Source: Naegleria gruberi
Lineage: Eukaryota
Strand: one strand, 5' to 3'
NCBI GenBank assembly: GCA_000004985.1
Contig: GG738880.1
Length of the DNA stretch: 64,000 bases
Part shown: piece after piece, positions 1 to 42,907 of the stretch
How the letters are laid out: the number at the start of each line of letters is the position of its first letter
How positions within the stretch are numbered: position 1 is the first letter of the stretch
Made by a program: the position numbers and the translations under genes
Notes under the pieces: generated by a model
Database searches by the model: none
Told to the model about the DNA's origin: nothing
What the model saw: the letters and a program-made list of their open reading frames with translations, nothing else

Positions 1-351
1 GTGTTTTGTGCAACCATCTAGACAAACTTTTCAAAGTAACAGAACAGGTACCTTGAAAAGATTACAATAACAATCAGGTGTCCTTTAACTCTTTAAAGCA
101 ACAAATCTCCTGATTGGCTGGCAGACCCTATAATTTTGAAACCATTCATTTTGCATTGTTGTTTTGCATCAAAACTCAACAACCATAAAAATTGTCCTCA
201 CAATAAACTGCTGCCCATAACAGAGTCCGACAAGAATACATGAGGAATTTGATAGAAATTTTGATAATGTTATTGATGATGAATAATTTTGCACAGAGTA
301 TTCATCATCCTAATTAATCATCATCATCATGATGGAGGAGGAATATTGAGA

Positions 352-3300
352 ATGTATGAAGCATCATCTTTGGCTTCATCGGAGGAATATAAAACGAGTA
401 GAAATATTGGAAATTATTATCCGTATAGAACAAGTATGAATATTGATGAAGTTTTAGAGTCATCATCATCAATTCAGAGGTCAACTAGAAGCAGGTCACC
501 TATGAGTGGTGGTATTCAACCAGTAGCAATGATTTATATTAATGAAAAAGTTAGTTATGACAATACATCAACATGTAACATTACTTTTCCATGTTCAAAT
601 CTTGGACAAGCTTTGGATTATTTGGCATCATTGGATGAGGAATCGAGATTGGGAATAATCATATTACAAGTGTATTTTATGAGTGATGTGACGACTTGTG
701 AGAATAGGTGGAGAAATGAATTGAATCCTACTATGGAAGTGTTTTTTTTAAACTATCCAACTAGAGAATCTAGAACATTTGATTGTAAAGGACTTAAATA
801 TTTTATTACGGATTTTGTAAACTCGAATTCTAAGTTGGGTATTAACATTTTTGAAATGAGGTTTGAAAATACATCATTTAAACATGCATTGGATATGATT
901 GGGTTCTCTGGATGTGTTTTGGATACAGTTTCTATTATTGTTGGAAAATCTTCAAAGGTGACTATTACCGACTCATTAGTTCTCAAATCAGGTATTAATT
1001 GTATAGAAGGATATTTAGAAACCTCTAATTCTGTATTTAGGAGTACTCAAATTCATGGATTTAATAACATTGGATCAGCAGTAGTACACCCAATCATAAT
1101 GCAAGATACAAAATTGTTGGAAAAATCAACACTTAGTCTCATATCATTTAGAATAACTATAAGCCAGTTTACCATTTCGGATTCTTCACTTGAAATTAAC
1201 TCAGCTCCATATATTGGAATTACTAATTTCACGGCTAGTAATTCACTTTTGAAATTTGAAGTTGTCAATAGAATGGAAATGAGCGAATTTGAAATATTCA
1301 ATAATGTGATACCAGTGCTATTCTCTGGTATAAACATACTTATAATGAATAATGGAACAATTAGAGATTGTGATGTGACTTCTGATGGTGCCCTTGCATT
1401 CAGAACTATTCTTTCAATGAATTTTCAAAAGTTAAAATTTATTAGAAATAGAAGAGGAATGTTTGCTGATAATGTTAGAACCATGTCATTGAAAAGATGT
1501 GAATTTTCACAAAATTATCAAGGAGTTAATTTACAAAACTTTGAAAATAATAGTCATGCAACATCTTCGTTTTATTTCTGCACTTTCATTGATAATTATT
1601 ATCCAGATGGTAATGGAGGTGCTGTTCAAATGATTAGTCAAGATTCTTTGCGTTTTTTTGCTTGTAAATTTGAGAATAATTATGCAAGAAATGGTGGTGC
1701 CATCTATTCAACTTCAGAGACCTCCATTGAGGCTTCTACATTCCGAAATAACAGTGCTGTATTGTACGGAGATTGCTCTGAAATTACTTGTGGAAATGGA
1801 GGCAGTTTTTACGGCAAGTCCTTTATCACATTGGAAGATGTCGAGTTTTCAGACAATAGAGCTATTAAGGGAGGTGCCTGTTTTTTCAATCATGTCACTA
1901 GATTAGACAGTTTTGGGAATCAATTGTTTCACAATAATGTTGCCTCTTTTGGAGGTGATGATATTTTCCTTCATGATACCTTTACTCAAGTTATGCCATC
2001 AGCCAAGTTTGCCCAATCAAATATTGGAAGTTTGAAATTGAAGTCAAACTATGAATCAAGCAAGAATATTTCTGTAGAGGATAGCTATTTGAAATTGTAT
2101 CCTGGACAATCTATTTCTTTCAGATTTGAACTATTTGACATGTATGGAAATCAGATTAGAAAAATACAATCTAGTCCAAGATTTGTATCCAGCAACCATG
2201 GTATTGTCGTAAAAACAGTGGTCAATTCAACAACCAATATTTCATTGAATTCATTTTCCTATGAGGTCAATGAGAAAATACCAAGTGATGATTTCCAAGT
2301 CCTCGTTTCATTTGACGAAAATTTCAAAGATTATATATTGAATATTCGACCAACTCACTGTCCATTTGGATATTCATTCAAACGACAATTTGAATCAGAG
2401 TTTAGTCAATATGCTTGTGTGAAAGAAAATTATGAGGCCATAATTGCATCATCTGTTATGGGAACGGTGCTTATTGTAATAGTATTGACTGGATGCTCAA
2501 TTGCTGCCTATTTTATTGGAACTCGTATGCATAATCTCTACAAGAGAGAACAAGCTGAAAAAAGTTTAGCCAAGAAACTCATAGATAAGCAATTTATATT
2601 TGGGGAACAGTCAGAGTTGACTGAAAGTTTATTGCACTCCAATGGAAAGGCAAAGCAGTTAAAGAGTCAATGTGATAATATGATTATTCCTCTTACAGAT
2701 ATTGAAATTATCAGCAAGATTGGAGAAGGTAGTAATGGTGTTGTGTATAAGGCTCGTTGGCATGGAACTTTTGTTGCATTGAAAACACTCAAAATTAACT
2801 CACTCTCAGAGGAAGAAAATGAAGAATTTGAACATGAAGCTGCATTATTATCAAGTTTGAAACATCCTTCTATTGTTTCATTTTATGGAATTTCAGTTGG
2901 GGTCAATGTCAAGTACATGATTGTTGAATTTATGCCGAATGGAAGTTTGGATCATTTAATTAGAGAATGTAAAAGTGGAAAGGTACATATAACTCTGCGA
3001 CAAAAGATTAATATAATTCTTGGTATTGCCAATGGATTACTCTATTTACACAATCTGAAACCTCTCTCAATCATTCACAGAGACATCAAACCTGGAAATA
3101 TTTTACTAGATCATTCATATCAGGCAAAAGTGAGCGACTTTGGATTATCCAAGCTCACTTCAAATAATGGTTCCTCAACCATGACTTCAAACTTGGGCAC
3201 TGTTCTATATATGGCACCAGAAGTAATCATGGAGGGTGAATATGACATTTCACACAAATTGGACGTCTACAGCTTTGCCATAATCATGTATGAATTATTC

Positions 3301-3639
3301 TTTGAGGAAGCTCCATTCAGTTCAGGTAGCTCCAAACTAAATAGATTTTCCAAAGATGAAAAGGAAGTGAAAAACCTATTGAGTATTCCATGGCTTGTAG
3401 CTAAGGGTGAAAGACCCAAAATTCCATTCACCACAGAGGAGGAACTATCAATGTGGATTGAGGAATTTATAAAGGATGAGAAGGATTTGAATGGTAATGT
3501 TTCACTTTTCAAAGCAGTGCAGGATTATATTGATTTGATGAAGAAGTGTTGGACACAAAATCCCTCCGAAAGACCTACCTTTGCTGAGGTTGTAATTATA
3601 CTTTCGAGAATGTTGTCAAATTATTGGAAAGGAATTTAA
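352..3639 (+). CDS. Receptor-like transmembrane Ser/Thr protein kinase with Pmp-like GGA[IV]/FxxN repeat ectodomain
   Basis: One continuous 1116-aa ORF (frame opens at TTG 289; first in-frame ATG at 352). The N-terminal ~700 aa carry repeated GGAI/GGAV/GGAC and FxxN motifs (NGGAVQM, NGGAIYSTSE..FRNNSA, GNGGSFYG, KGGACFF), typical of polymorphic-membrane-protein/beta-helix repeats. One TM helix follows (VMGTVLIVIVLTGCSIAAYFIG). The C-terminal domain is a protein kinase: glycine loop IGEGSNGVVYKA, VALK lysine, HRDIKPGNILLD catalytic loop, DFG (VSDFGLSKL), APE (YMAPEV). No obvious signal peptide at either candidate start. Confidence 0.8.
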   Translation: MYEASSLASSEEYKTSRNIGNYYPYRTSMNIDEVLESSSSIQRSTRSRSPMSGGIQPVAMIYINEKVSYDNTSTCNITFPCSNLGQALDYLASLDEESRLGIIILQVYFMSDVTTCENRWRNELNPTMEVFFLNYPTRESRTFDCKGLKYFITDFVNSNSKLGINIFEMRFENTSFKHALDMIGFSGCVLDTVSIIVGKSSKVTITDSLVLKSGINCIEGYLETSNSVFRSTQIHGFNNIGSAVVHPIIMQDTKLLEKSTLSLISFRITISQFTISDSSLEINSAPYIGITNFTASNSLLKFEVVNRMEMSEFEIFNNVIPVLFSGINILIMNNGTIRDCDVTSDGALAFRTILSMNFQKLKFIRNRRGMFADNVRTMSLKRCEFSQNYQGVNLQNFENNSHATSSFYFCTFIDNYYPDGNGGAVQMISQDSLRFFACKFENNYARNGGAIYSTSETSIEASTFRNNSAVLYGDCSEITCGNGGSFYGKSFITLEDVEFSDNRAIKGGACFFNHVTRLDSFGNQLFHNNVASFGGDDIFLHDTFTQVMPSAKFAQSNIGSLKLKSNYESSKNISVEDSYLKLYPGQSISFRFELFDMYGNQIRKIQSSPRFVSSNHGIVVKTVVNSTTNISLNSFSYEVNEKIPSDDFQVLVSFDENFKDYILNIRPTHCPFGYSFKRQFESEFSQYACVKENYEAIIASSVMGTVLIVIVLTGCSIAAYFIGTRMHNLYKREQAEKSLAKKLIDKQFIFGEQSELTESLLHSNGKAKQLKSQCDNMIIPLTDIEIISKIGEGSNGVVYKARWHGTFVALKTLKINSLSEEENEEFEHEAALLSSLKHPSIVSFYGISVGVNVKYMIVEFMPNGSLDHLIRECKSGKVHITLRQKINIILGIANGLLYLHNLKPLSIIHRDIKPGNILLDHSYQAKVSDFGLSKLTSNNGSSTMTSNLGTVLYMAPEVIMEGEYDISHKLDVYSFAIIMYELFFEEAPFSSGSSKLNRFSKDEKEVKNLLSIPWLVAKGERPKIPFTTEEELSMWIEEFIKDEKDLNGNVSLFKAVQDYIDLMKKCWTQNPSERPTFAEVVIILSRMLSNYWKGI

Positions 3640-11918: not shown

Positions 11919-13461
11919 TACCTTCGTACTTTGTTGTTTTTTTCACAAACACCAACAGACGAATCAAACTAAATAATTAGAAACCTACGAGCAGATCAAA
12001 TATATTGAGAGGATTTTAGGCATTGAGTAATAGAGCCTAGCAGATTACTTGTGGAGAGGAAATTGTAAATAGCAAAACGCAGGTTGAAGAGCTCGATACG
12101 AATACGCAAAGATGTCATCATTCAAAACTATTAGAAACTAATTTTTGGTCAGCTAATCAAAATTGGTTATTGGAATTTACAAGACATTAGACGAAAACAA
12201 TTTAAACCATAAACATGAAAGTTATTGGATTAAAATAATATTTAATTTATATTAGAAAAGTTGATTTCAATTCAGCGGCTCATTAACAAAAATTGCTTCC
12301 TGTTGCTTTGGTATCAATTGGGAGGTTTTACATGAAATGCATGCAATCGTTCACTTGCGAATAAATAATCCATTAAAGAGAATTTCAGTGAATAGTCATT
12401 TTGATTTGTCCCTCTTCCTATGTTGATGACCGAATGTGAAACCAAACATTTGATGAATTATGTAAATTATGTTCAACATGAGAGAACCGTTAAAGAGAGA
12501 GGAGTGCTTTCAAACCCTTATATCCAAAATTCGCTCAAGTTGTCTTCCATCTATCAAGTGCAATGGAATCTGTTTGTGTGGATCGGATAATATTGCAATT
12601 TCCTTTTATGAGCAGGGAGCGAATAGAAATCAAACCTTGCCTTTTAGAAATTCCACCTTAATTGTTGTAAATTCTTGGAATTATTATTTTGTTTTGATTT
12701 TAATCAAGTGATTAATTTTTGCTGGGATGTGAAATACTTCTGTGAAACTTGTGGTTCATTGAACGAAATGGCACAAGTATTCGTTCTGTCTTTGTTCTGA
12801 CGTGGAATGAAATGGGTCATCTCTCAATTTTATGCTGAAGAGTGCCTGAAACTATTGTAAGATGGATTTTTGACACAATTCAACATTAGATCGAGGAACA
12901 AGAGGTAAATTTTCTGTTCAATAAGGAGACTAATTCATTTTGGAAAGTGAGCAGTGTGGTATATGAATCTAAATAAAATTAGTAGATCGATCGAAATAGT
13001 TAGAGGATTTTAGGCTATCCTATCTTGTTGATAAATTTTCCCGCCTTATTCTTGTAAATTTTTTAGATTATTTTATTTTTTAATTAAAAAAAAAGCTGCA
13101 TGTGATAGTCTTTGGATGTTATTGTCTAGTGGGTGCATGGTGTGGTTTACTATTCTTGGGAATTAATTATTATGTTTTTTGTGATATCATGATCAGCATG
13201 ATTCCAAGAATATGTGTCCAGATTATTCTAATCAATTTATGATGATAACAATTTTCCATTAATATTATTCATGGAGTTGATGCACTAAGTGGTCTATATC
13301 CGAGGATCTGGATAACTCGTTACCACATTGATATTTTCGAGTACTACATACGATAAGGACTACGTTCGTTCAACTGGAGTTTATCAACTAATCTAAATGA
13401 ACAAAATAGAATAATTTCCTTTAAGAAAATAAGAAGAAATCTCTTGCACTGTCTTAACAGA

Positions 13462-15921
13462 ATGTTTTCATACGGTGACAATCAACCGAATAACAACAAC
13501 CTTGGCCAATATCAACATCGAAGAGAATCAATAATTGGAGGAAGGACAAAGAAGAAGTCAACTTCACGATCTAAACAATCGGATTTCCCAGTTGCTTTCT
13601 ACTCTGATTTTGATAGTGATGATATTGATGAGGCTCCTATCATTCGTCTAAATAATTCTAAAGAAGAATCAAACGAAACTGAATCAAACATCCAAACAAC
13701 ACCACGAAAGAAAAAACGAAAGAAACGACAATCTTCTTGTGGAGAATGCGGAGTAAACTGTAGAAGATATGGTTTCCGAATTATGAACCTAATTTTTGTC
13801 TTGTTTGTTTTTCAAACATTTTTTGGGATTTTGGCTTCTTTCGTCTTGCTGTTCTCTAGTGGATCCGATATTTACAAAAACACAAATGGATACGAAAGGT
13901 GGCAAATGAGCTACAAACTAAGGATGGGAGTTGTGAAAATTCAAAATTCTGCTAGAACTCTGGTTGACTTGATGTTTTACACTCTCTACATTGGAAGATT
14001 GATGGAATTGGATCATGAAATTGAGTGGATGCGATTATTACGAACAGCTGAGAGAATGATTATCAGTCGACAAATATCTTCCATTCAATTTATACGATAT
14101 GATGATTATTATATACTGTATAGAAACCATCTATTCGAAACGAGCAAACATTTCAATACATCAGAGGGCTTGAAAAAACATTTCGTTTATGCTGTAAGGA
14201 ATAATAGTGCACTCCTATTGTCGTATTATGATTTGCAATTGGTTGATAGAGAACACCATCATATTACTTCACCAACGGATAGTGATTGGTATAGGGAGGT
14301 GCAGAGTTCACGTAAGGCGTCTGAGCCTTGTTGGACTCACGCATATTTGAATGAGGAGAACTTGTATTCAGTTTATTTTGCCTATCCAATTTATAGCCAA
14401 ATTCCAACAAGAAACCTGAGCATGTCAGAGGTTAATGAAACTATTGTTGCTACTCAACCAAAAGATTTAGTGCAGTTTAATGGCACATCTGAGGATTATT
14501 TATTTGGAATTGTTGCATTAGAGTTCAAGATCCAATATGTCAACACCTTTCTGAACACTTCCTCTTCGCTACAATCATTCATAATCAATGGAACTGGATA
14601 TGTTTTGGCAAGGAGTAGTGATAGCGACTCTTCTATTGATGAACTTGCTCGTGAAATATATAATACTGGATTACTAAACATGAATCTGAGTGCCAACGAA
14701 TCGTACATTTTTGATTATAAGGGGAAAGTAGTGGAGATTTCAACAGTTAGAGATAATTACAATTTAACTTGGGCTGTTGTGACAACGAGTTTGGAAAGAA
14801 GTTATTTCTCAGAAGTCATATCCACGGGTGTTGTTTCCGTCATTTTATTTATTATCTTATTTGTATTAGAAACCTTAATTGTATTGTGTATTGTTCAATC
14901 TATTAACCAGCCTCTGATAGATATTACCAAACAAATGAATAATCTCATTTCATTTAAAGGCTTGGAATCTCCATACAAGAAACATGCAACAGTATTCAAT
15001 GAAATTAGAGAAATGGATGAAAATATACAAATTACACAGAGAGGAATATTTGCATTCAGCAAGTATGTTCCACACATTGTTGCCAAGATGATTGTCTCAA
15101 ATATGCAAGAGTATGGGAAAATTGGTTTGGAATTAGAACCTAGCATGACAGTCATGTATTGTGGAGTCAATAATTTTGCAGCACTTGCTGAAAAAACCGA
15201 AACCACAGCATTTATTCGAGTCATTACCGAATATTATAGCTCTATATCACAGGTAATTGAAGCTCATTATGGAATTATTGATAAATTCATTGAAGGTACT
15301 ATTATGATATTTTGGAATGAAAAATCATTCAGATGTGCCAATCATGAATCGCGAGCCTGTAAAGCTGCCATTGAGTGTATGGAAATATTAGAAGGTTTAA
15401 ACACTAAATGGAATAATTTAATGGGTATTCAATTGAGTATTTCTATTGGAATCACATGTGGTGAAATGCTTGTTGGTTGTCTAGGAAATAAGAGTAGAAT
15501 GTCATTTACTGTGATTGGTGATGCCTGTAATATTGCATTAAGATTACAATCCCTAGCTCCAAATTATTGTGCCATCCTTGTAAGTGGCGAGATTGTTGAG
15601 AGAGTGAAGGAAGAGTTTGTTTTGTATTTTGTTGATCTAATCAAATTGAGAGGAAAGAGTAATCCAACATGTGTTTACAATCTAGTAGCATTCAGGAGTG
15701 AGGCTTCTGATTTGGAGAAAAAGTTGGAAAATGACTTGTTGCAAGCCAAAGAGCTTCTCTTCGCTGGTCAGTATCTCCAATTTTATAGTGTTTGTGAAAG
15801 ATTGGCTGATGTGTGGAGTGATTCGGCAATAGTTGTAAAGTTGTTCGAAAGAGCTAAACGATTGGTTGCATCAGAAGAGAATATAAGCGATTCAGACAAG
15901 TCTGATAGTGTCTTTTTATGA
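13462..15921 (+). CDS. Class III adenylyl/guanylyl cyclase, membrane-anchored, with an extracytoplasmic sensor region between two TM helices
   Basis: Continuous ORF (opens at TTG 13444; first ATG at 13462). TM1 is IMNLIFVLFVFQTFFGILASFVLLF. A ~330-aa loop follows, then TM2 VVSVILFIILFVLETLIVLCIVQSI. The C-terminal cyclase homology domain has the motifs VMYCGVNNFAALAEK, IDKFIEGTIMIFW and IGITCGEMLVGCLGNKSRMSFTVIGDACNIALRLQSLA. Confidence 0.8.
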   Translation: MFSYGDNQPNNNNLGQYQHRRESIIGGRTKKKSTSRSKQSDFPVAFYSDFDSDDIDEAPIIRLNNSKEESNETESNIQTTPRKKKRKKRQSSCGECGVNCRRYGFRIMNLIFVLFVFQTFFGILASFVLLFSSGSDIYKNTNGYERWQMSYKLRMGVVKIQNSARTLVDLMFYTLYIGRLMELDHEIEWMRLLRTAERMIISRQISSIQFIRYDDYYILYRNHLFETSKHFNTSEGLKKHFVYAVRNNSALLLSYYDLQLVDREHHHITSPTDSDWYREVQSSRKASEPCWTHAYLNEENLYSVYFAYPIYSQIPTRNLSMSEVNETIVATQPKDLVQFNGTSEDYLFGIVALEFKIQYVNTFLNTSSSLQSFIINGTGYVLARSSDSDSSIDELAREIYNTGLLNMNLSANESYIFDYKGKVVEISTVRDNYNLTWAVVTTSLERSYFSEVISTGVVSVILFIILFVLETLIVLCIVQSINQPLIDITKQMNNLISFKGLESPYKKHATVFNEIREMDENIQITQRGIFAFSKYVPHIVAKMIVSNMQEYGKIGLELEPSMTVMYCGVNNFAALAEKTETTAFIRVITEYYSSISQVIEAHYGIIDKFIEGTIMIFWNEKSFRCANHESRACKAAIECMEILEGLNTKWNNLMGIQLSISIGITCGEMLVGCLGNKSRMSFTVIGDACNIALRLQSLAPNYCAILVSGEIVERVKEEFVLYFVDLIKLRGKSNPTCVYNLVAFRSEASDLEKKLENDLLQAKELLFAGQYLQFYSVCERLADVWSDSAIVVKLFERAKRLVASEENISDSDKSDSVFL

Positions 15922-15932
15922 GTGGAAGCCAT

Positions 15933-18900
15933 CTAACTAATGATTTTAAATTGTTTGGCTAGTAATTGTTGCATATTTAGCAATACACTTGCAAATTCCT
16001 TATTTCTGCCAATTTCTAACAGTTGAGGATGAAGGAAAATATCGCTGGTTATGCACGTCTCTCCAGGAACATGTGATTCAAAGATTGTATCCTTTATCTT
16101 TGTGCATGATTCATAACTGTGATTGGCTATGAATAGTTTGTCCTCGACAGAAATAGTTGGATGGGACAATAATGTTTCAATCAAGGCCTTCCACTCATTA
16201 ACACAAGAAGAGTTGGCAGAGTCAATTAACTTTCTAAAGAAATCTCTCTTGAAATACGTTTCAAATAATTGATGAAATAAAGGAGGACATGCCCACATTA
16301 TTGAACACATGTAAACAACAAAGGATGGCCGAAAAGTTTCCTCATTTCTTATATCATTCATAATGGAAGAAACAATAAATTCGTTCCACATACTCTGAGC
16401 AAGTATTGATTCTGACATATTCCTCTTAATTTCCAACAAGTAAAGAGATTTTACAGAATAAAGTGCCAATAAATCTTCATTCTATACATAGGTATCAAAA
16501 AATATTAGTCGACACTGAAGATATGATTGTACTTACACTTAAAATATTATTCAGTAATGAATAAGCCAAGGTAAAACTCCAAACTTTCGAATGATCAATC
16601 TTGCTACTTGTTGACAATATTGTGTGGAATGTACATGTTGAAAGAATTCTTAAAAGTGGAGAATCATTATTCAAATATTGAATGGTAAATTTCAACAATG
16701 TTTCACAAATTTGGGAATTCTCTTCGCTTGATCCCACCATACTACGAAGCAAGGCTGTTATGAGTTGAAAGATGCTAATAATAAAACCACTTGCAATATT
16801 CTCTGAATCAAATAAAGTGAGTAATTTCTCTATGGATTGAAGTGACCTTGTCAAGTTGGATTTGACTTGAAAGCTAGAGAGTCTCTGTAAAGAAATGCCA
16901 TTATCATCTGCTGATCTTATCAAGTAGATAATTTTCGTTAGTATATTCATAGTGAGGCCAATAGTCTTCAAATCTAGCTTTAGGTCTGAAAGAGAATGAA
17001 ATATTTTAGAATAGTGATTAAAAATAGTTGAGAGATAAACAACACTTCTCGAGAAATCCAATATGATGCTAGTGCATTTAGTAATCTCATCAAGAGTTGA
17101 TGTAAGGTTGGTGTTACATCCCTTCTTGAGTGAAATATAAATATTACTCAAAGTAGGTTCTATTATTTTCTGAATGACAAGTGTAGAGTCCTTCTCATGA
17201 ACCAGTGCTTCTGTTGTGAAGTATTCGCTCAGTATTCTCAAGAATTGGGTAGTTGAATTTTTCGATGTTGAATTTTCCATAAAGAGTGAAACTAGAGTTG
17301 GTACAAGATCCACTCTGGCATCCTTTAAAATACCAAGCAAATACGACTCTTGGCTATGTGATTGCATGTTGATAAGACCAGATAATAAGGTACGTGTAAT
17401 ACCACTTGTTGTGCTCTCCTGTTGAGAAGCCCATTTTACAAAGAGTGAGGTTCTCTCCTTGAAGGAAAAATTTGTCAACTTCATACACTCCAGATACCAA
17501 CCCAGAACCAAGTTAGATATTGTGGAGGGAATTGTGCCGAAAGAATAATGTAAGGAAAGACCAACAAAGAGTTCGGAAAGTCTGAGCCTGGAAAGAGTGC
17601 TCAAATTACTAAGGCTCTTATCAAGAATCATTGTTGAAATAGTGGACAATAATGTATTCAGTGGTGTAATAATTTCATTATTAAAAAGGGTGTAATGTAA
17701 AAGAGCAATTCCTAATGCACAAAGATCACTTCGTAACATACCAACAATGCTAGTTGGAGAAAAATCAATCTGATCCAATATGGAGCTCTCTACAGGTGAA
17801 TCCAATAAATCACTAGAGTGCAATACTAGGACTAATAGCTGTTTGTGAGCAAGTGTCATTTCACAGGATGAATTAATAGATAATGATACAAATTTCTTTT
17901 GCAATAGATAATCAAGAATACTGGCCCTTTTTTGTTGAACAAGTCTTTGATAGAAATAGTCGTGACATGTTCTCAAAAATCTTTCATGAAGACTCTCAGA
18001 GATATTAACATGCTCAAGAATGAGCTCATCAATTCTTGATAACAAATCTGATTGTTGAAATTCACTCAATCTTCCAAGCCCAATAGCACAAATCATAAAA
18101 GTAGCAAGTCCCTCTTCAACTTCATCCAAAACTCCATTTTTCAAAATAGTGCTAAATAATACTGTTAAATGGTGTACCAGTTTACTCGTATCGAGTGTAG
18201 ATTGTTGTATGAACATATAGCAAATCTCACAGAGAGTCTTGAAATTCAAGCCAATTGTTGTAACCATCTCCTTTACAACATCACTAGGAAAATTAATTAT
18301 TGTGATACTGATCTGTTCGCACAATGAATTGAAATTATTTTGAAAGTCTTTCTGGGTAGTAAGGCCAAATTCTACACTATTCAAATAGTACATGTAAAAT
18401 ATGCTCAGAATATTATTTGACAAATTCAAGTGGTCAATAGTTTCAACTTTGGATGGAAAAATCTTTAACAATGCTGTAATACCTAACTCTTGGAAATTAT
18501 GCAAAAAATTAGTACCAACCAAATTGTTTCCAGAAACCAAAAGGGAGTGAAATATGGCTAAAATTGATGGGCTTATTTCTCCAGTAGCATCCTTGTTAAG
18601 AGCTTCAAAAAGAAAGTCACTAATATCTGAATTTAAAAATTGAACTCTGGCATCTTGACTTTTTGTTGAGCATTCCAGTATGAGTTGGTTGCAAATAATT
18701 TGTATGGAAATGTTTGGAGAGAGAATCACTGATATGAGAGCATTAATTAATCTTTGGTAGTCAATGATGGAGAGTACATCAAGAGCCTCCCTGTCAAACC
18801 TAACAAGACAATGCAAAACAGCCAAAGCATTAATATGAAGATCTTCATCCTCAGCCTTCAACAAACAAGCAAGAACAGTGTCAATGAATGTCTCATTGGA

Positions 18901-19891
18901 TTTGTTGTTCCACACACCATGTGCAATTCGAGTACAATCACTGTGTAGTTGAATAATTTGGCATAATTTCAATATGATGAATAGAACATCAGACTTTTGT
19001 TCATTTTCCGTCTTGTTGAATGATAGCTGATTGGAAGTAAAGTTGTTGATGAGGATGATGAGCAGTGAAGAGAAGGCTTCCACAGGTATGTTCACTACAT
19101 TCCAACAATCTTCAGATTGAAGACTTCTACAAATCTTGTCAACTAATAAACAGAGAAAGTTGGCACAAACATCACCAAATTGTTGTTGTTCTTCACTTAT
19201 TCCACACATCTAAAAGAACATCACATCCAGGTGGATTCGAATATTGAAGTTTAGAATATAGAGTTTAAAGCAAACTTACCACTTGCACAATTAGAGGAAA
19301 ATCTCTGGAAAGTAACTTATCAGTTGGAACAATTTCCAACCATAAGCGAATAACCTCTTCAAGTATGTTGTTCTCTCCCAATGATGATGCTTGGTATGCT
19401 GATTTAGTCTTCAAGCCTCCTTGACTATTGTCCAACACGAGTGATGATGAAGCAGGAAGGATAGCTTTCAAACAAGTGGAAAGTAACAAAGGACCTACAT
19501 GATCCAAATCATTGACCATTGAATTGATTTTAGGATTCATCCCAGAGGCTAGTGAAGATATAATCATGGCCGAGGAAGAAGGACAAAGAAGTTGCTTCAA
19601 CACATCTAATAGTTTAATCTTCCTCAACGATAATTGGCTCTTATCAAACAGGAATGCCAAGGCACATTCAAGACAAATTGCTTGTTGTGTTGCTTGTTGT
19701 CCAATAGGAAAAGCACTAGTTACATTGTTATGGATTGATGTTGTTCCTCCTATGGTAGATGGTAATGAAGATAGGATGGAGAGAGGATTATGTAAATGAT
19801 GAGAGGAAGCAGCCATTGATGATGAAAGTAGACTACTCGGAAGGCTTGTTGTTGTGGATGATCCAGAAATTGTCTTGTAGTTGAACATCAT
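15933..19891 (-). CDS. Large (~1280 aa) alpha-helical ARM/HEAT-like repeat protein, function unknown; 3 exons: complement 19280..19891, 16537..19209, 15933..16481
   Basis: Three minus-strand ORFs join in phase 0 via two introns. One is GTAAGTTTGCTTTAAAC...TTCTTTTAG at plus 19210..19279 (70 nt). The other is GTAAGTACAATC...CTATGTATAG at plus 16482..16536 (55 nt). The protein is Leu-rich and helical throughout with no catalytic motifs. Confidence 0.55.
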
Positions 19892-29038: not shown

Positions 29039-30031
29039 TTACTCAGCATTGTCCTCCACATGTTTTAAAATAATTTCATAAATTTTGAATAACAAATTTG
29101 GAGAAACAATCTTTTCATCCTCAATTCTTGTAAGGAAATTGGAAAATACTTTCGGTATGGCAAAGTAAGTATTCGATTTAGCATTGGCGGTATTTGTTGC
29201 TGGAGTTGGAGTGTTTGCTTGCTTTTTGTCTCCCTTTTGATCAATCTCAATCAAATGTTTGAGGAATTTTCTCAGTTGACTTGCATTTTCTCCCACAACT
29301 TTATCAGCCGAATCAATAGTTGCAAATTTAATCTTACACCAATCGTGAATGGCTTGATAGAAAATTCCTGACGACAATTCAGATGCCATGTTTGGTAAAA
29401 ATTCATTGATCATGAAATTTAAATCCCATCCACTAATTATTTCAGGAGAGAATGAATCTTCCTGACTTTCCACAATGTATTTCCTCAAATTATCAATCTT
29501 GGAATAATCTTCGTGATCCTTTGCGAGATTCTCTGAGAAATTTTGCACAATGAATGGCCACATATTCACATTCAAATAATCATCGTGAATGCAATCCAAT
29601 ATTCTACTCTTCACTTTTGGGGAACACTCAAATAGTGTGAGCAATGTGAGAATAATCCTAAAATCAGTCATTGATAAATCTCTCGTCAATGAAACTCCAT
29701 AAATTAATTGTAGAAATGTAATGACAATGAAGGATGGCAAAAAGAAGGTAATTTCCTTCTTATCCGGTGATAGTGCCATCACTTTGGAAATATCCTCCCT
29801 CCTACTCGTAGCAATATCATCATTAAATAATTGTTTAAAAACAGATGCTGATTCGGAAAGTTTTTCCATGTTTAAATAAAAGACTCTATCCTTTACTTGT
29901 TCACTTAAAATTCCAAGTTGATCATACTCTGTCTTACAAATACATTTAATATCCTTCTCGGGTGTTGCTGAGTGATCATTCCAGCCAGCACATGTGAATG
30001 AAGTGTGCGGAAGGTAAACTTTTCCTGGCAT
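29039..30031 (-). CDS. Hypothetical protein with possible BTB/POZ-like domain
   Basis: 330-aa ORF. The region SESASVFKQLFNDD...KKEITFFLPSFIVITFLQLIYGVSL...LTLFECSPKVKSRILDC loosely resembles a BTB fold. It begins only 9 bp downstream of the stop of the histidine-kinase gene on the same strand. The real initiator may be an internal Met (for example MEKLSESA). Confidence 0.4.
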   Translation of the reverse strand: MPGKVYLPHTSFTCAGWNDHSATPEKDIKCICKTEYDQLGILSEQVKDRVFYLNMEKLSESASVFKQLFNDDIATSRREDISKVMALSPDKKEITFFLPSFIVITFLQLIYGVSLTRDLSMTDFRIILTLLTLFECSPKVKSRILDCIHDDYLNVNMWPFIVQNFSENLAKDHEDYSKIDNLRKYIVESQEDSFSPEIISGWDLNFMINEFLPNMASELSSGIFYQAIHDWCKIKFATIDSADKVVGENASQLRKFLKHLIEIDQKGDKKQANTPTPATNTANAKSNTYFAIPKVFSNFLTRIEDEKIVSPNLLFKIYEIILKHVEDNAE

Positions 30032-30040
30032 TTTTTTCTA

Positions 30041-33000
30041 TCATCTTCTTACAATATCGAGCACTAGCTGTCTGATATCACTTAACCTGGTTGGCTTTGA
30101 CATGAAGTATTTTACACCATTGTTTAAGAGTTGTTCCTCTTCCTTCTTATTTACAATGTTTGCTGTGAGGAGTACAATGTTTGGAGCATTTTCTTTACAG
30201 GTTTCATGAATGATTCGAGACGTGTCAAACCCATCGAGTCCATCCATGAAAAGATCTAAAAAGATAATGTTAAAGCAGCTATTCTTGACATATTTGATAG
30301 CTTCCTCACCACTTGAAGCTATTGAAATCTTTTGTAATCCAAGTTTGATTAGCATGTGTGAGAGAACCTTTGAATTAATCATGTTATCATCCACAATGAG
30401 AACAGAAAAGTGACCAGCAATGCTCAGTAATTCGTCCTCAGGTACAATTGATCGTTTCTCTATAGGTTTGACCTCTTCAATTAGGTGCGATTTGAGGGCC
30501 TGTGTAAAATCGGCAAGTTTGAAAATTGGCTTGCTTAAATATGGACCTTCTTTCAGGCAAGAAAATTGAACCATGGAAGGCAGTATATGAATCTTGTTGT
30601 GATTCAATGGCAAGTTCAATTCATGACAAATACTTTCAACATTCGAAGATTGTAAAGCTTCCAATAAATTTAAATCCACCACTATTATTAGCTTATCCAA
30701 ACTGTCCAATTTAGATAATGAGCCTTCTAAGGATTCAATAAGTGATTGTTTTGAATTGCATATTACGAAATTCTCCTCTTCATTGTAACCCGTTGCAACA
30801 TTGAAACCCCTGGAGAAATTTTTCAAACTCTGTGAAAATAAATCATTCCTATCCAGTACCATATATTGAGTATTGCGAGGAGAGCTTGTATTCTTCCACT
30901 TTGAAAAAAAGTTTACATGTTTGGAGTTATTCTTTTCCATGTTGGCACGATCTTCAAGTGAAAGTTCCTCAATTTCCTTGAAAGTTGTCTTACATGTAAA
31001 GATGAATTTTGATCCCTTATTTAATCCTTCACTTTCTGCCTTCAAGCTTCCCCCGAGCGCGTTTGAAATCATTTTTGAAATGGAGACACCTAGACCTGTT
31101 CCTTTTGGTGCATGCTGGGTGTTAAATTGGAGGAATGGTTGGCCAATTTTTGTTAAATTTTCCTTTTCAATTCCAATACCCGTATCACAAACTTGAATTT
31201 AATGTCTATGAATAATGATATTATAAATATTACAAACCTTCTATTTCCAAGTGGGCTTGTTCAGCATCAATTTTGACCAATTGTACACCAATATAAATAT
31301 AGCCAACCTCTGTAAATTTCACAGCATTAGACAATAAATTGAGTACAACTTGCTTTAGTCTCCCTTTATCACTATTTAGAATTATATTAAAAGGAAAATC
31401 TGGTTTGTAGTCAACTATGAGATCAAGTTTCTTTTTTGTACATTCCAAAACTACAAGGTCAATAACCTCTTCAATTGGTTCATTAGCATAAAAATATTCT
31501 GAATTGAGTTTCATATGTTGCTCCAATTTCATTAAATCGAGAAAATCATTTATCAATGAGAGCATAGTCTCTCCACTATTCTTAATCATGGTCAGATATT
31601 CATAATGCTCATTACTGATATTCACTGATGATCCAAGTAATAAATCAGAAAGACCCAAAACGCACACAAGTGGAGTACGTAGATCATGTGATGTATTTCT
31701 CAAAAATTGCTCCTTCTCCATAATGACTTTCTCTGATATTTTTCGTTGCTCCAACAATTCTTGCTCCACTTTTCTTCTCTGTTCCACTTCCTCTTTAAGT
31801 TTAATATTGCTACGTAATAGCTCCTCGGTTCTTTGCTCGATCCTTTGTTCGAGATTTAAATTTGCCAACTTGAGTTTTTCCTTTGCCTCTTCTCTTTCCA
31901 AATAATACTGCCAAGAAACAATGATCGTGGAACAGGTTGTGCAAATTGGCTCCAAGAATGAAATATCCTCCTCACGAAATCCTCCTTCTTTATTGGCCAA
32001 TCCAATCATGCCAACAATTTTGTTATTATGTATAAAAGGTAGTCCAAGAAAACTATTGAGGGGTGGGTGTCCTAATCCAATAATTATTCAAAAAATATAA
32101 TCAATCGATTCAATCAACCAATACTTGAACATACCTGGAGGAACATGATTAGGTGATGCAAAAGGATGAGTTTTTGGGTGATTAGTCAGTAAAGGTTGCC
32201 CTGTCATCATTACATGACCAAAGAGACTGTTCATGTTATTGAACTTAAAGCCTACTTGTGTACATTTTTGAAATAGATCGAGTGCTTCTTGAGATAATTT
32301 CGTTCTGGCGAAAGATATAGCATGTGAGTGTAGAAAAGGTTTTCCATCATCTGTGTACTTGACCTCACCAATGAAACTGTACTGGCAACGAATGAGAGAT
32401 ATGACCTCATTCAGCAAGTCTAAGAAGAGTTTGGATGGATTTTCCATATGCAAGGCTGCACTCAGTTGTGCATTATAAATTGATCTTAGTAAGTCATGAG
32501 AACGGCTAGCGTGTCCATCACTCTCCGGAGAATTTGGGGAGTGATTGGATTTGAAGGAACATTTACCAGAGTGTTTTCGGTTTATCTTGAGTTCATCCTT
32601 AAATTCTAGATCAATGGCACATGCCTTTCTATTCATACTAATTCGTTCCAATGTTTGTGTTGATTGTTGAATTTCTGCAAGGAGGTGATGTTTTCTCAGA
32701 AGTGAATCCAATTGTGATGTTGCAAATGATGTCGTTTCGTCGTCATCCATATTCGAGGATGAGGAAGACGAGGAAACACTAGATGAGGCTATTGAAAAAT
32801 GTCGTCCTGTTGAACTTGGATCAGAAATACTTTCAGAAGAGAATGGACATGAAAATCCAAAATCACCTGAAATACTTTCTCTATGATGAGGAGGTGAGAA
32901 TGCTTGCTGATGAGATGTAGGTGTGCAAACAACACTTTCCTTATGATGATTATGTTCGGTTATTAAATTAATGTCTGTTCTGTTTGTTTTATTTGTTGAG

Positions 33001-33254
33001 GAGGATGGAATAGAATCACCCTGTTGTTCCATTGCTCGCGTATTGTTGTTGTACAACTCTTGTTGAGAACAGCACTGTTGTTGAGTGACCATGCTGAGAA
33101 GAGTTTTGTTTTTTTTTTGGCTAATCGCTTTGGACATTTTAAGTGGTTTAACTACCGTAAAAGAGAGCGTTAAGAAAACAACAGTAGTTGTCACAATAAA
33201 GTCGTAAGGAAATTGTTGAGGATATGATTGAAAAATAATATGAGCGACAAACAT
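30041..33254 (-). CDS. Hybrid sensor histidine kinase (GAF - HisKA - HATPase_c - receiver); 3 exons: complement 32144..33254, 31238..32080, 30041..31191
   Basis: Exon 1 is joined to exon 2 by GTATGTTCAAG...TGGATTAG (plus 32081..32143, 63 nt, phase 1), continuing a GAF-like domain (FIGEVKYTDDGKPFLHSHAIS...G-HPPLNSFLGLPFIHNNKIVGMIGLAN). Exon 2 has the H-box FLRNTSHDLRTPL and the N-box LLSNAVKFT. Exon 2 is joined to exon 3 by GTTTGTAATATT...AAATTCAAG (plus 31192..31237, 46 nt, phase 1), giving EIE-V-CDTGIGIEKENLTKIGQPFLQF...GTGLGVSISK (G1/G2 boxes). Exon 3 ends with a receiver domain (VLIVDDNMINSKVLSHMLIKLG...IIFLDLFMDGLDGFD...LLTANI...KPTRLSDI). The true start could be the internal ATG near 33140 (MSKAISQ). 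Confidence 0.8.
31192..31237 (-). other. Spliceosomal intron (46 nt) inside the HATPase_c region of the histidine kinase
   Basis: Minus-strand GTTTGTAATATTTATAATATCATTATTCATAGACATTAAATTCAAG. Removing it restores the G1 box (EIEVCDTGIGI). Confidence 0.7.
32081..32143 (-). other. Spliceosomal intron (63 nt) inside the GAF region of the histidine kinase
   Basis: Minus-strand GTATGTTCAAGTATTGG...ATTATTGGATTAG. Phase-1 in-frame join. Confidence 0.7.
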
Positions 33255-41183: not shown

Positions 41184-42907
41184 TTAACAAGTATATGAAC
41201 CATTCCAATTCAAAAATACATAGGCACTTTCCAAAATGGATGGATTTGCTGGAGTATACATGAATACAAACTTGATTGACATTTCTGCCAATTTACCTTC
41301 TTTCAGCTTGATCATGGCTCTGGCAGTTCTTTCAGCTCTGAGATGAGATTGTTGCAAAACAGCAAGTCCATTATCGACATGTGAAATTATTGTTTCTCTA
41401 GTTGCCTTGGCTTCACATAACAAATTGAGTTGAGTTTGAATGAAATCAGGGCCCATAATTGAATCCAATCGAGTCAATGGTTGCTCTTCAAACATGGTAG
41501 AGAGTGGATCGCTCACATACTGAACAGATGTAAAATCAGAACCAACAGCAACAACACCCAATGGCTTTTCAACAAGTTGTGATGGAGTAGTGGCATCATT
41601 CACTGGATAGACATTAGTTGATGTTGAAGTAAGTGTTGTAATAATTGATGGAGTTGTTGGAGCATGCGCAATATCAGAAGAAGTCATAATCTCAACCTTA
41701 GAGAGTTTTGGTTTGGTTTCAAAGTTTTGCTCTGCTTCATTTGGAGATGATTTTCTCTTCTTTGATTCGGCTGAGGTTTTAGCTTTGGTCTTTTTACCAG
41801 ATTTACCATTTTTATCCAATGCCACTGAGGTATTATTTGATTCGATATCTTGATTTGAACCCATTGTTGATCTTCCTCTCTTCTTGGTTGATTTCATTTC
41901 CACACATTCCAAACCCAATCTTACGCATCTTTCACATGGTCGTTCGAAACCACATCTTGTATGACGTTTCTGACATTCAACACATGCTTTGCTTGCTCTC
42001 TTTCTGCCATTAGGATAGGGTGAATTCTTTTCTTGACTATTGGTTGGAGAGCTAGTTCTTGTACTGCTCTTATCTCCAGTTGGAGTTGTATTGACATTGG
42101 CATGTCCACGTTGTTTTTGGCCATTTGAACTATTGCCAGAAGAATGAGATGGTGATTTAACATCATGTTGTTGATCTTGCTCATCCTCAGTTAAATGATC
42201 AAAATCATCATCTTCTTCCTCAGCATGCTTTCTATTCGAAACAGTTCGATTCTTCCTTGATTGTCTTTGTGGAGAAGTTGCAACAATAGTTGGATTGAAA
42301 GAATGATGATCTTCAATATCGAATGAAGTTAGTGGTTCTGAATTATCCAACAAGTGAATAAAATCTTCCTCTCCTTTCAAAATTGAAACCATGCCATCCA
42401 CATGTTCAGGTGAAAAGAAGCCCTGATGTGGCTGATGTTGTTGTGATGATGATTATTATTCATGTGAGTGGTATCTACATTATAGTGGTGGAAAGTTGTT
42501 GTTGCATTATTGTTTACATGTTGTTGGAATGCTTGTTGTGGATTGGAATGTTGTTGTGGATTGTTGTGATAGAAATGTTGGTCAGGGAGATTTGAGTCGT
42601 GATAGTAAGAAGGAAGCATCATATTCTGTTTCGAATTGTGATGTTGGGAAAGGATGGCTTGATTTCTCGAATAGATATCCATCAGGGATTGTTTAGTAAC
42701 TAATCCATTCATCATCATTGATTCCATAGTGTGGTCAATTTGTGCACCACCATGTTCCAAGTAAGGATGCTGACTTGGCATTGAATAATTGTTATTATTA
42801 TTCAATGGTGGCATATAGGATGGAAATGAATTCACGAGATTACCATTGTTAATAGTACTATTATTTGTTGCTGAATTATTTGCTGCTGACATGACACGTG
42901 TAGCCAT
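41184..42907 (-). CDS. Zn(2)-Cys(6) binuclear-cluster (fungal-type) DNA-binding domain protein with Gln/Asn/His-rich N-terminus; probably 2 exons or a frameshift at ~42380-42460
   Basis: The 405-aa ORF has the six-cysteine pattern ACVECQKRHTRCGFERPCERCVRLGLEC, flanked by basic residues. The upstream 176-aa Q/N/H-rich ORF overlaps by 25 nt in another frame. A weak 47-nt intron (GTAGAT...CATCAG) or a single-base frameshift would fuse them in frame, since both frames are open across the overlap. Confidence 0.55.

What the first reader, a model, noticed from the sequence alone, without database searches (positions are those of the whole stretch)
13462..15921. Two-TM class III nucleotidyl cyclase with a ~330-aa extracytoplasmic loop
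The TM1 - sensor loop - TM2 - cyclase topology is that of bacterial receptor-type cyclases (CHASE/Cache-like sensors), not the 12-TM metazoan adenylyl cyclase. The loop (YKNTNGYERWQMSYKLRMGVVKIQNSARTLVDLMFYTL...NGTGYVLARSSDSD) may bind an external ligand. Whether it makes cAMP or cGMP cannot be decided from substrate-specifying residues without alignment.
Basis: partly seen in the sequence, partly recalled or inferred. Interest (0 to 1): 0.5.

Follow-up and report, generated by a model that had tools for sequence, protein, structure and literature searches.

The report
Naegleria dCache receptor with crippled cyclase domain
This gene of the amoeba Naegleria gruberi encodes a bacterial-style membrane receptor with an outside sensor and an inside adenylyl-cyclase-like domain, but that domain has lost both metal-binding aspartates and so probably cannot make cAMP on its own.

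Summary
ORF 13462-15921 (+) encodes 819 aa, identical to the Naegleria gruberi 'predicted protein' D2VLK9. It has two hydrophobic spans, a 324-aa sequon-rich loop and a C-terminal class III cyclase-homology domain (Pfam E 1.4e-13).

The substrate residues are Lys608/Thr683, the ATP-type class IIIb pair, and Asn690/Arg694 are kept. Both metal-binding aspartates are glycine (G568, G612). Twenty-four canonical comparators all have Asp/Asp.

The loss is shared by every relative found, all from Naegleria. There are two partly complementary subtypes. Type A, including this protein, keeps Lys and Arg. Type B keeps the second Asp/Glu but has lost Lys and Arg. All lack the first Asp.

So this is not a self-sufficient cyclase. 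It is most likely a C2-like half-site that needs a partner, or a nucleotide-binding pseudo-cyclase. No partner was identified and nothing was tested biochemically.

Cache-linked 'bacterial-type' cyclases in Naegleria were already reported. The family-wide catalytic degeneration appears undescribed in the literature searched. Interest is moderate.

The parts
13462..15921 (+). Whole gene: single-exon ORF of 819 aa plus stop codon, equal to N. gruberi D2VLK9 / NAEGRDRAFT_69817
13462..13779 (+). N-terminal cytosolic tail (residues 1-106): low complexity, an acidic DFDSDD patch, a KKKRKKR stretch and a CGECGVNC cysteine cluster just before TM1
   Evidence: Sequence itself. Basic residues lie on this side of TM1. 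The DFDSDD patch and the cysteine cluster are conserved in paralogue P0002.
13780..13854 (+). TM1 (about residues 107-131)
   Evidence: Hydropathy peak 2.43. 100% identical to paralogue P0002.
13855..14826 (+). Extracytoplasmic dCache_1-type (double PDC) sensor domain, residues 132-455, with 10 N-glycosylation sequons. Contains the D275-W-Y motif in the position of the Cache 'RPWY' motif, and G349-IVALEF. Residues about 317-342 form a low-confidence, sequon-rich insertion.
14827..14895 (+). TM2 (about residues 456-478)
   Evidence: Hydropathy peak 3.27. 90% identical to P0002.
14896..15141 (+). Cytosolic helical linker, residues 479-560. Its N-terminal part is HAMP-like in length and position only. 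Its C-terminal part ('FSKYVPHIVAKMIV') is conserved with the segment that precedes the catalytic domain in bacterial dCache- and CHASE2-cyclases.
   Evidence: HAMP is not detected by Pfam or hhalign. The pre-catalytic segment aligns with P0034, P0036, P0038 and P0035. 88% identical to P0002.
15142..15681 (+). Class III (subclass IIIb-like) cyclase-homology domain, residues 561-740
   Evidence: Pfam PF00211 E 1.4e-13. PDB hits: CyaB 2e-18, CyaC 1.5e-14, OaPAC 4e-13.
15163..15165 (+). Codon GGA = Gly568, at the position of metal-binding Asp 1 ('MYCGVNNF' against the canonical 'FFSDIxGF')
15283..15297 (+). K608-F-I-E611-G612. The adenine-specifying Lys is kept. Metal-binding Asp 2 is replaced by Gly (GGT), with Glu one residue earlier ('KFIEGT' against the canonical 'KFxGDA').
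15508..15543 (+). T683 (class IIIb Thr in place of the substrate Asp), N690 and R694 (transition-state Asn/Arg), all retained ('SFTVIGDACNIALRL')
15682..15918 (+). C-terminal tail, residues 741-819, predicted helical from its heptad-like pattern. It is conserved in the Naegleria family, and its start aligns with the tail of bacterial CHASE2-cyclases.
   Evidence: Family alignment. The start of the tail aligns with P0022 (sequences). No Pfam family matches.

Best explanation
The gene encodes a bacterial-type receptor of Naegleria gruberi. Its parts are a cytosolic N-tail, TM1, a glycosylated extracellular dCache_1-type ligand-binding domain, TM2, a helical linker, a class IIIb cyclase-homology domain (CHD) and a helical C-tail. 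Like all such 2-TM dCache receptors, it should act as a dimer in which ligand binding outside shifts the helices that lead into the CHD pair (inferred). The CHD keeps every residue that one subunit contributes to the substrate side of a class III active site: Lys608 and Thr683 for adenine, Arg679, Asn690 and Arg694. It has glycine at both metal-binding aspartates (G568, G612). It therefore resembles the C2 domain of mammalian adenylyl cyclase or the beta subunit of soluble guanylyl cyclase. A homodimer cannot form the two-metal centre, so any cAMP synthesis needs a partner subunit that supplies the carboxylates. The only candidates seen here are the 'type B' paralogues (P0014, P0033). They share the whole architecture, have kept Asp/Glu at the second metal position, and have lost Lys and the transition-state Arg. 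Shown: the architecture, the dCache fold, the residue pattern and its conservation. Inferred: inactivity as a homodimer. Speculative: the identity of the partner.
For: CHD homology. G568 and G612 replace the two Asp in alignments to three solved homodimeric cyclases. The same holds in MAFFT alignments with canonical comparators, all of which have Asp/Asp. There are 24 comparators in total, counting P0023-P0025 read by eye and L001-L004. The codons were read directly. The loss is shared by paralogue P0002 and by relatives in N. lovaniensis and N. fowleri. The CHD is nevertheless 83% identical between the two N. gruberi paralogues, against 61% for the loop. That points to a domain under constraint rather than a decaying one. 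Lys, Thr, Asn and Arg are kept in all type A members, a pattern expected if nucleotide binding still matters. Type B (P0014, P0033) shows the partly complementary pattern S / M / G-[ED] / K. [quoted passage not shown] In chytrid rhodopsin cyclases the NeoR cyclase is inactive alone and works only in heterodimers (PMC10622942).
Against: No subunit carrying both aspartates and the same architecture was found, and every family member lacks Asp 1, so even an A/B heterodimer would have only one carboxylate. Type B was seen only in N. gruberi, although the search tools were insensitive. An acidic residue (Glu/Asp) is conserved one position before the lost Asp 2 in all type A members, and Cys567 precedes G568. 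A non-canonical metal site cannot be excluded from sequence alone. The roughly 80-108 other Naegleria cyclases could not be retrieved and checked. There are no expression or biochemical data.
Confidence: 0.45

Rival explanations
1. Fully non-catalytic pseudo-cyclase. The dCache receptor signals without making any cyclic nucleotide. The degenerate CHD pair would serve as a nucleotide-binding (ATP or cAMP) or protein-docking module, in the way degenerate GGDEF/EAL domains act as c-di-GMP receptors.
For: Asp 1 is missing in every family member of both subtypes, so no combination within the family rebuilds the canonical site. The domain is still conserved, 83% between paralogues. The base-, ribose- and phosphate-contacting residues are retained, which is compatible with binding without turnover.
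Against: Asn690 and Arg694 mainly serve the transition state, so their strict retention is not obviously needed for a pure binding module. The partly complementary losses in type B look like subfunctionalisation of an active site. No downstream partner or binding function is known.
Confidence: 0.3
2. Self-sufficient homodimeric adenylyl cyclase with a non-canonical metal site. Glu611, and perhaps Cys567 or water, would replace the lost aspartates after a one-residue register shift.
For: Glu/Asp at the position before the lost Asp 2 is conserved in all five type A sequences (IEGT, MDGT, IEGS, VDGT). All other catalytic residues are intact.
Against: No acidic residue replaces Asp 1 anywhere in strand beta-1 in any family member. 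Cys before Asp 1 is also common in canonical enzymes ('FCDL' in P0005, P0007 and P0008), so it is not a special adaptation. On a beta-strand the neighbouring side chain points the other way (structural reasoning). Both Asp are described as essential for metal coordination (PMC3591389).
Confidence: 0.2
3. A receptor guanylyl cyclase that makes cGMP.
For: The Pfam family covers both activities.
Against: The substrate positions are Lys608 and Thr683, as in CyaB, CyaC and all ATP-type comparators, not Glu/Cys. The metal site is missing in any case.
Confidence: 0.02
4. A decaying pseudogene or an assembly or annotation artefact.
For: Loss of two catalytic residues is what a dead gene might show.
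Against: The 819-codon ORF is intact. A second N. gruberi copy carries the same substitutions, with 83% CHD identity and 100% TM1 identity. The same substitutions occur in two other Naegleria species.
Confidence: 0.03

Closest known systems
Bacterial dCache_1-(HAMP)-class IIIb adenylyl cyclases (P0034, P0036 and P0038 found here; M. tuberculosis Rv2435c is named as a double-Cache cyclase in PMC4822843)
   Same: They share the 2-TM layout with an extracytoplasmic dCache_1 domain, the conserved pre-catalytic helix 'F..YVP..V', and a class IIIb CHD with the Lys/Thr/Asn/Arg set. P0034 aligns over 62% of the type B paralogue P0014.
   Different: All bacterial relatives examined keep both metal-binding Asp, whereas this protein and its whole Naegleria family do not. 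P0036 has a recognisable HAMP domain in the precomputed Pfam column, whereas none is detectable here. The Naegleria loop is heavily sequon-decorated, as expected for eukaryotic glycosylation.
Other N. gruberi Cache-cyclases already in the literature (D2VLR9 and D2V3A4; described as a 'bacterial-type adenylate cyclase' in Upadhyay et al. 2016, PMC4822843)
   Same: Same organism, with a Guanylate_cyc output and a dCache_1 sensor. The authors attribute them to horizontal transfer from bacteria.
   Different: D2VLK9, D2VUL0 and D2V3R6 (this protein and two relatives) are not in the stored part of that list. Those other proteins were not detected as relatives of this loop in an exhaustive search. 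Their catalytic residues could not be examined here.
C2 domain of mammalian membrane adenylyl cyclase and the beta-1 subunit of soluble guanylyl cyclase
   Same: Each is a CHD that supplies the base-specifying and transition-state residues but cannot bind the metals, so it is inactive as a homodimer (PMC3591389; the C2 comparison rests on my own knowledge of Tesmer et al. 1997/1999).
   Different: Those partners (C1, alpha-1) carry both Asp and are known. Here no such partner is known, and the closest candidates (type B) carry only one carboxylate. The architecture is also entirely different: a dCache receptor, not a 12-TM or haem-NOB protein.
Heterodimeric rhodopsin guanylyl cyclases of chytrid fungi (RGC/NeoR)
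   Same: They are single-CHD receptor proteins of a microbial eukaryote in which one subunit's cyclase is inactive alone and works only in a heterodimer (PMC10622942).
   Different: They have a rhodopsin sensor, GTP specificity and experimentally shown heterodimers. None of that is shown here.
Homodimeric class IIIb cyclases CyaB (P. aeruginosa, 3r5g) and CyaC (Spirulina, 1wc0)
   Same: They are the best sequence matches among solved structures (E 2e-18 and 1.5e-14). They share Lys/Thr/Asn/Arg and the overall CHD.
   Different: They have Asp at both metal positions and two symmetric active sites. Their sensor domains are also different.

Membership tests
Class III nucleotidyl cyclase (cyclase-homology domain, Pfam PF00211) | Sequence homology of the domain above the curated threshold | tested here: met
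   51.3 bits against a cut-off of 21.9, E 1.4e-13. PDB cyclases match down to E 2e-18.
Class III nucleotidyl cyclase (catalytically competent enzyme) | Two metal-binding aspartates (strand beta-1 'F-x-D-I' and hairpin 'G-D') | tested here: not met
   G568 and G612 occupy these positions. All 24 canonical comparators have Asp/Asp.
Class III nucleotidyl cyclase (catalytically competent enzyme) | Transition-state Asn and Arg ('N-x-x-x-R') | tested here: met
   N690 and R694 in 'CNIALRL'.
Class III nucleotidyl cyclase (catalytically competent enzyme) | Dimerisation and measurable cAMP or cGMP synthesis | not testable with these tools
   Needs biochemistry or a multimer model. Only single-chain prediction was available.
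Adenylyl (not guanylyl) specificity, subclass IIIb | Lys at the first substrate position and Thr/Ser, instead of Asp, at the second. Guanylyl cyclases have Glu and Cys. | tested here: met
   K608 and T683 align with the Lys/Thr of CyaB, CyaC and all bacterial relatives. The subclass definition comes from my knowledge of Linder and Schultz 2003.
dCache_1 (Pfam PF02743) extracytoplasmic sensor | Pfam match above the gathering score | tested here: not met
   20.6 bits against a cut-off of 45 (E 3.7e-4) for this protein. Best family member scores 36 bits as a whole protein (E 6.8e-9), and E 2.4e-10 when its loop is scanned alone. 5 of 8 members match.
dCache_1 (Pfam PF02743) extracytoplasmic sensor | Homology to a bona fide dCache_1 domain by profile comparison | tested here: met
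   The family profile against P0029 gives probability 97.6% and E 3.5e-12 over 195 columns, inside P0029's dCache_1 domain (70 bits in Pfam) and running on into TM2.
dCache_1 (Pfam PF02743) extracytoplasmic sensor | Double PDC fold with a long N-terminal stalk helix, placed between two TM helices | tested here: met
dCache_1AA amino-acid sensors | Ligand motif Y121, R126, W128, Y129, Y144, D173 (PctA numbering; PMC10589655) | tested here: not met
   By register with P0029 and the family alignment, this protein has W276 and Y277. It has no Arg two residues before the Trp ('DSDWY'), it has His at the Tyr144 position and Glu354 at the Asp173 position. The assignment is by alignment only and is approximate.
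CHASE domain sensors | Best structural or sequence match to CHASE rather than Cache | tested here: not met
HAMP domain | Recognisable HAMP sequence profile after TM2 | tested here: inconclusive
   No Pfam hit at E up to 10. hhalign against five HAMP domains gives probability 0.3%. Length, position and a Pro after TM2 fit HAMP, and no structure model of this part was made.
Obligate heterodimeric cyclases (C1/C2, sGC alpha/beta, RGC/NeoR type) | Catalytic residues split in a complementary way between two different CHDs, one of which carries both Asp | tested here: inconclusive
   Type A (G/S, K, [ED]G, R) and type B (S, M, G[ED], K) are partly complementary, but no member with both Asp was found. 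The other Naegleria cyclases could not be retrieved.

The most novel reading that the evidence does not exclude
Naegleria has turned a bacterial-type homodimeric dCache adenylyl cyclase into a genus-specific receptor family. In this reading the catalytic domain has diverged into two complementary degenerate subtypes. Type A keeps the substrate Lys and the transition-state Arg. Type B keeps only the second metal carboxylate. The two would work as obligate A/B heterodimers with a single, unusual one-aspartate active site, or as ligand-gated nucleotide-binding pseudo-cyclases. This would be an independent, receptor-level parallel to sGC alpha/beta and chytrid RGC/NeoR.
Probability: 0.3. Interest if true: 0.6.

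Novelty: new variant of a known kind. Interest (0 to 1): 0.4.

Why it matters
Naegleria carries one of the largest cyclase repertoires of any eukaryote, at least 81 by one count (PMC9928731), and almost none has been characterised. This subfamily shows that counting 'Guanylate_cyc' domains overstates the number of working enzymes. It also gives a concrete, testable case of how a horizontally acquired bacterial homodimeric sensor-cyclase can be remodelled into a partner-dependent or non-catalytic receptor in a eukaryote. An ortholog-like relative exists in the pathogen N. fowleri (P0012/P0017), and the family was found only in Naegleria and one unassigned environmental sequence. Its extracellular dCache domain is therefore a potentially specific surface target. 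None of this is established beyond sequence and fold inference.

Tried and rejected
1. AlphaFold on the loop with a two-sequence alignment gave an unusable model (pLDDT 37). The eight-sequence family alignment was needed.

2. A loop family profile searched against PDB sequences found nothing meaningful (best E 0.025, an amylase). Only fold comparison worked.

3. HAMP was looked for twice and not detected, so I do not call the linker a HAMP domain.

4. CHASE was considered and rejected in favour of dCache.

5. The word-index protein search was too insensitive for finding partners. It did not even return known family members P0010-P0014. The other Naegleria cyclases, including the published dCache-cyclases D2VLR9 and D2V3A4, therefore could not be inspected.

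6. The DNA of paralogue P0002 is not on record, so no dN/dS could be computed.

8. The afdb50 fold library was unavailable.

9. Metagenome scans found no close relative. A scan with the pattern '[SNE]M[TI]VM[FY]CG' returned no confirmed relative, and the four loci recovered are ordinary bacterial cyclases with Asp/Asp.

10. No second cyclase domain exists in the 64-kb window (tblastn; Pfam).

11. Pseudogene and guanylyl-cyclase readings were rejected on conservation and on substrate residues.

12. The weak Pfam hits COG4_m and DHHC are treated as noise.
Full report
**1. What is there**

The window is eukaryotic DNA from Naegleria gruberi, about 34% GC and densely packed with long ORFs. The ORF at 13444-15921 (+) has its first ATG at 13462 and encodes 819 aa. 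This protein is 100% identical over its full length to the NCBI/UniProt entry XP_002675071 / D2VLK9, 'predicted protein [Naegleria gruberi]', NAEGRDRAFT_69817.

**2. Topology**

A Kyte-Doolittle scan with a 19-residue window finds only two TM-grade peaks, at about residues 107-131 and 456-478. A 106-residue N-terminal tail ends in KKKRKKR and a CGECGVNC cluster just before TM1.

The 324-residue stretch between the TMs carries 10 of the protein's 14 N-x-S/T sequons. Shuffling the loop predicts 3.7 (P = 0.002), and the cytosolic parts show no such excess (4 against 3.8). Loops of the relatives are equally sequon-rich. An N-in, loop-out, C-in topology is therefore well supported, although it is still a prediction.

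**3. The loop is a dCache_1-type sensor**

- Pfam gives only sub-threshold dCache_1 hits for this protein (E 3.7e-4, 20.6 bits against a cut-off of 45), plus a faint MCP-like_PDC_1 hit for the first module.
- An exhaustive phmmer search of the loop against 1.84 billion representatives found just seven real relatives. Six carry Naegleria names and one is an unnamed environmental sequence. They are P0002 and P0014 (N. gruberi), P0010, P0011 and P0013 (N. lovaniensis), P0012/P0017 (N. fowleri) and the environmental fragment P0015. The eighth hit is a spurious TPR protein.
- Five of eight family loops hit dCache_1, best E 2.4e-10.
- The family profile aligns with the dCache_1 region, TM2 and the start of HAMP of a cyanobacterial histidine kinase (P0029; its own dCache_1 scores 70 bits). 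Probability is 97.6% and E 3.5e-12 over 195 columns, including the Cache 'RPWY' and 'GV..DF' motifs.
- AlphaFold with the eight-sequence family alignment gave a usable model, pLDDT 72.7 and pTM 0.74. It has a long N-terminal helix followed by two alpha/beta modules.
- In Foldseek against the PDB, nearly all of the top 50 hits are annotated dCache or tandem-PDC ligand-binding domains of bacterial chemoreceptors, kinases or GGDEF proteins (probability 1.00, E down to 9e-9).

The canonical amino-acid-binding motif of dCache_1AA (Y121, R126, W128, Y129, Y144, D173; PMC10589655) is not intact. By alignment register only the Trp-Tyr pair is kept. The ligand is unknown.

**4. Linker**

About 80 residues connect TM2 to the catalytic domain. 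Length and position suit a HAMP plus a transducer helix. HAMP is nevertheless not detectable by Pfam or by hhalign against five real HAMP domains, so I leave it open.

The last part of the linker ('FSKYVPHIVAKMIV') clearly aligns with the pre-catalytic segment of bacterial dCache- and CHASE2-cyclases.

**5. The catalytic domain**

Residues 561-737 match Pfam Guanylate_cyc (E 1.4e-13). The best matches among solved structures are the homodimeric class IIIb adenylyl cyclases CyaB (3r5g, E 2e-18) and CyaC (1wc0, E 1.5e-14).

The printed alignments and two MAFFT alignments agree on every functional column:

| Position | Residue here | Status |
|---|---|---|
| Substrate Lys | K608 | kept |
| Second substrate position | T683 | Thr, as in class IIIb; not Asp, and not the Glu/Cys of guanylyl cyclases |
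| Phosphate Arg | R679 | kept |
| Transition-state Asn | N690 | kept |
| Transition-state Arg | R694 | kept |
| Metal-binding Asp 1 | G568 | lost ('MYCGVNNF' against 'FFSDIRGF') |
| Metal-binding Asp 2 | G612 | lost ('KFIEGT' against 'KFVGDC') |

The two glycine codons are GGA at 15163-15165 and GGT at 15295-15297.

All 24 canonical comparators have Asp at both positions. These are three solved enzymes, 17 database proteins including bacterial dCache- and CHASE2-cyclases, and four metagenomic loci.

**6. The loss is old and conserved**

Paralogue P0002 (D2VUL0) has the same two glycines. Identity between the paralogues is 100% in TM1, 90% in TM2, 88% in the linker and 83% in the CHD, but only 61% in the loop. 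The output half is thus under stronger constraint than the sensor.

The relatives from N. lovaniensis and N. fowleri also lack Asp 1 (Gly or Ser) and have [Glu/Asp]-Gly instead of Gly-Asp, while keeping Lys, Thr, Asn and Arg. I call this 'type A'.

Two further N. gruberi paralogues, P0014 (D2V3R6) and P0033 (58% identical to each other), form a 'type B'. They have Ser at Asp 1 and Gly-Glu or Gly-Asp at the canonical Asp 2 position. Their substrate Lys is Met and their transition-state Arg is Lys. The two types are partly complementary, but neither has Asp 1.

**7. Mechanism**

In class III cyclases the active site lies at the dimer interface. One subunit gives the two Asp that hold the two metals. 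The other gives the base-specifying, ribose and phosphate residues. This is established knowledge. For sGC the two Asp of the alpha subunit are called essential for metal coordination, and homodimers are inactive because the residues are split between subunits (PMC3591389).

A homodimer of this protein would have two sites, each with the substrate half but no carboxylates. I therefore infer that it is not a self-sufficient cyclase.

- **Partner-dependent half-site (0.45).** The protein is a C2-like or beta-like half-site that needs a partner. Retention of Lys, Thr, Asn and Arg across species fits this, as does the complementary decay in type B.
- **Nucleotide-binding pseudo-cyclase (0.30).**
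- **Non-canonical but active enzyme using Glu611 (0.20).** This remains possible.
- **Guanylyl cyclase (0.02) or pseudogene (0.03).** Both readings are unlikely.

**8. Relation to what is known**

Naegleria's very large cyclase repertoire is known: 'at least 81 cyclases' (PMC9928731).

Upadhyay et al. 2016 already noted a Cache domain in a 'bacterial-type adenylate cyclase' of Naegleria and ascribed it to horizontal transfer. Their table lists D2VLR9 and D2V3A4, but not D2VLK9, D2VUL0 or D2V3R6 in the stored part.

The closest full-length relatives outside Naegleria are bacterial dCache_1-(HAMP)-cyclases and CHASE2-cyclases with intact sites.

I found no paper describing the catalytic degeneration of this subfamily. 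That covers only the open-access library available here.

**9. Verdict**

The protein is a new variant of a known kind, the dCache-linked class IIIb cyclase receptor. What distinguishes it is a genus-wide loss of the metal-binding aspartates and a split into two partly complementary subtypes. Interest is moderate (0.4). It would rise if an A/B heterodimer or a pseudo-cyclase signalling role were shown.

Noticed in passing
P0014 (D2V3R6) and P0033, N. gruberi paralogues on other scaffolds; not in the window: A second subtype of the same receptor family ('type B'). It has Ser at metal Asp 1 and keeps Glu or Asp at metal Asp 2. The substrate Lys is replaced by Met and the transition-state Arg by Lys. 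This is partly complementary to the window protein.
   Followed up: partly
window 13738-13761 (residues 93-100, CGECGVNC): A cluster of three cysteines lies immediately before TM1 on the cytosolic side and is conserved in paralogue P0002 (CGECGLNC). It could be a palmitoylation or metal site. The weak Pfam DHHC hit there is probably noise.
   Followed up: no
window 15919-15935: The cyclase stop codon (15919-15921) and the end of the convergent minus-strand ORF 15933-16469 are only 11 bases apart. That ORF probably belongs with the 904-aa ORF 16495-19209, and neither has a Pfam match. The 3' ends of the two genes must nearly touch or overlap.
   Followed up: no
window 29039-33254 (-): Four consecutive minus-strand ORFs include a HisKA domain (31230-32009) and a response-regulator receiver domain (30041-31072). 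This is probably one intron-split hybrid histidine kinase, another bacterial-type signalling protein.
   Followed up: no
window 53201-56281 (+): A 1026-aa protein carries a GPS (GPCR proteolysis site) motif and a C-terminal RGS domain. It recalls the seven-transmembrane RGS proteins described in N. fowleri (title of PMC9283941, seen).
   Followed up: no
window 44583-45809 (-): An unusual fusion of an N-terminal F-box with a Ras/Roc-type small GTPase domain.
   Followed up: no
window 41184-42401 (-): A Zn(2)-Cys(6) binuclear cluster domain in a heterolobosean (E 1.8e-8). Pfam labels this domain 'fungal'.
   Followed up: no
window 289-3639 (+) and 49834-53193 (+): Two further large putative surface or signalling proteins. 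One is a 1116-aa protein with a C-terminal protein kinase domain. The other is a 1119-aa protein made of teneurin-like EGF repeats.
   Followed up: no
P0012 versus P0017 (N. fowleri), alignment columns 711-756 of A2: The N. fowleri relative has a 46-residue insertion between the pre-catalytic helix and the CHD that no other member has. It may be a retained intron in the gene model. P0013 (N. lovaniensis) likewise looks like a mis-joined model that lacks TM2, the linker and half of the CHD.
   Followed up: no
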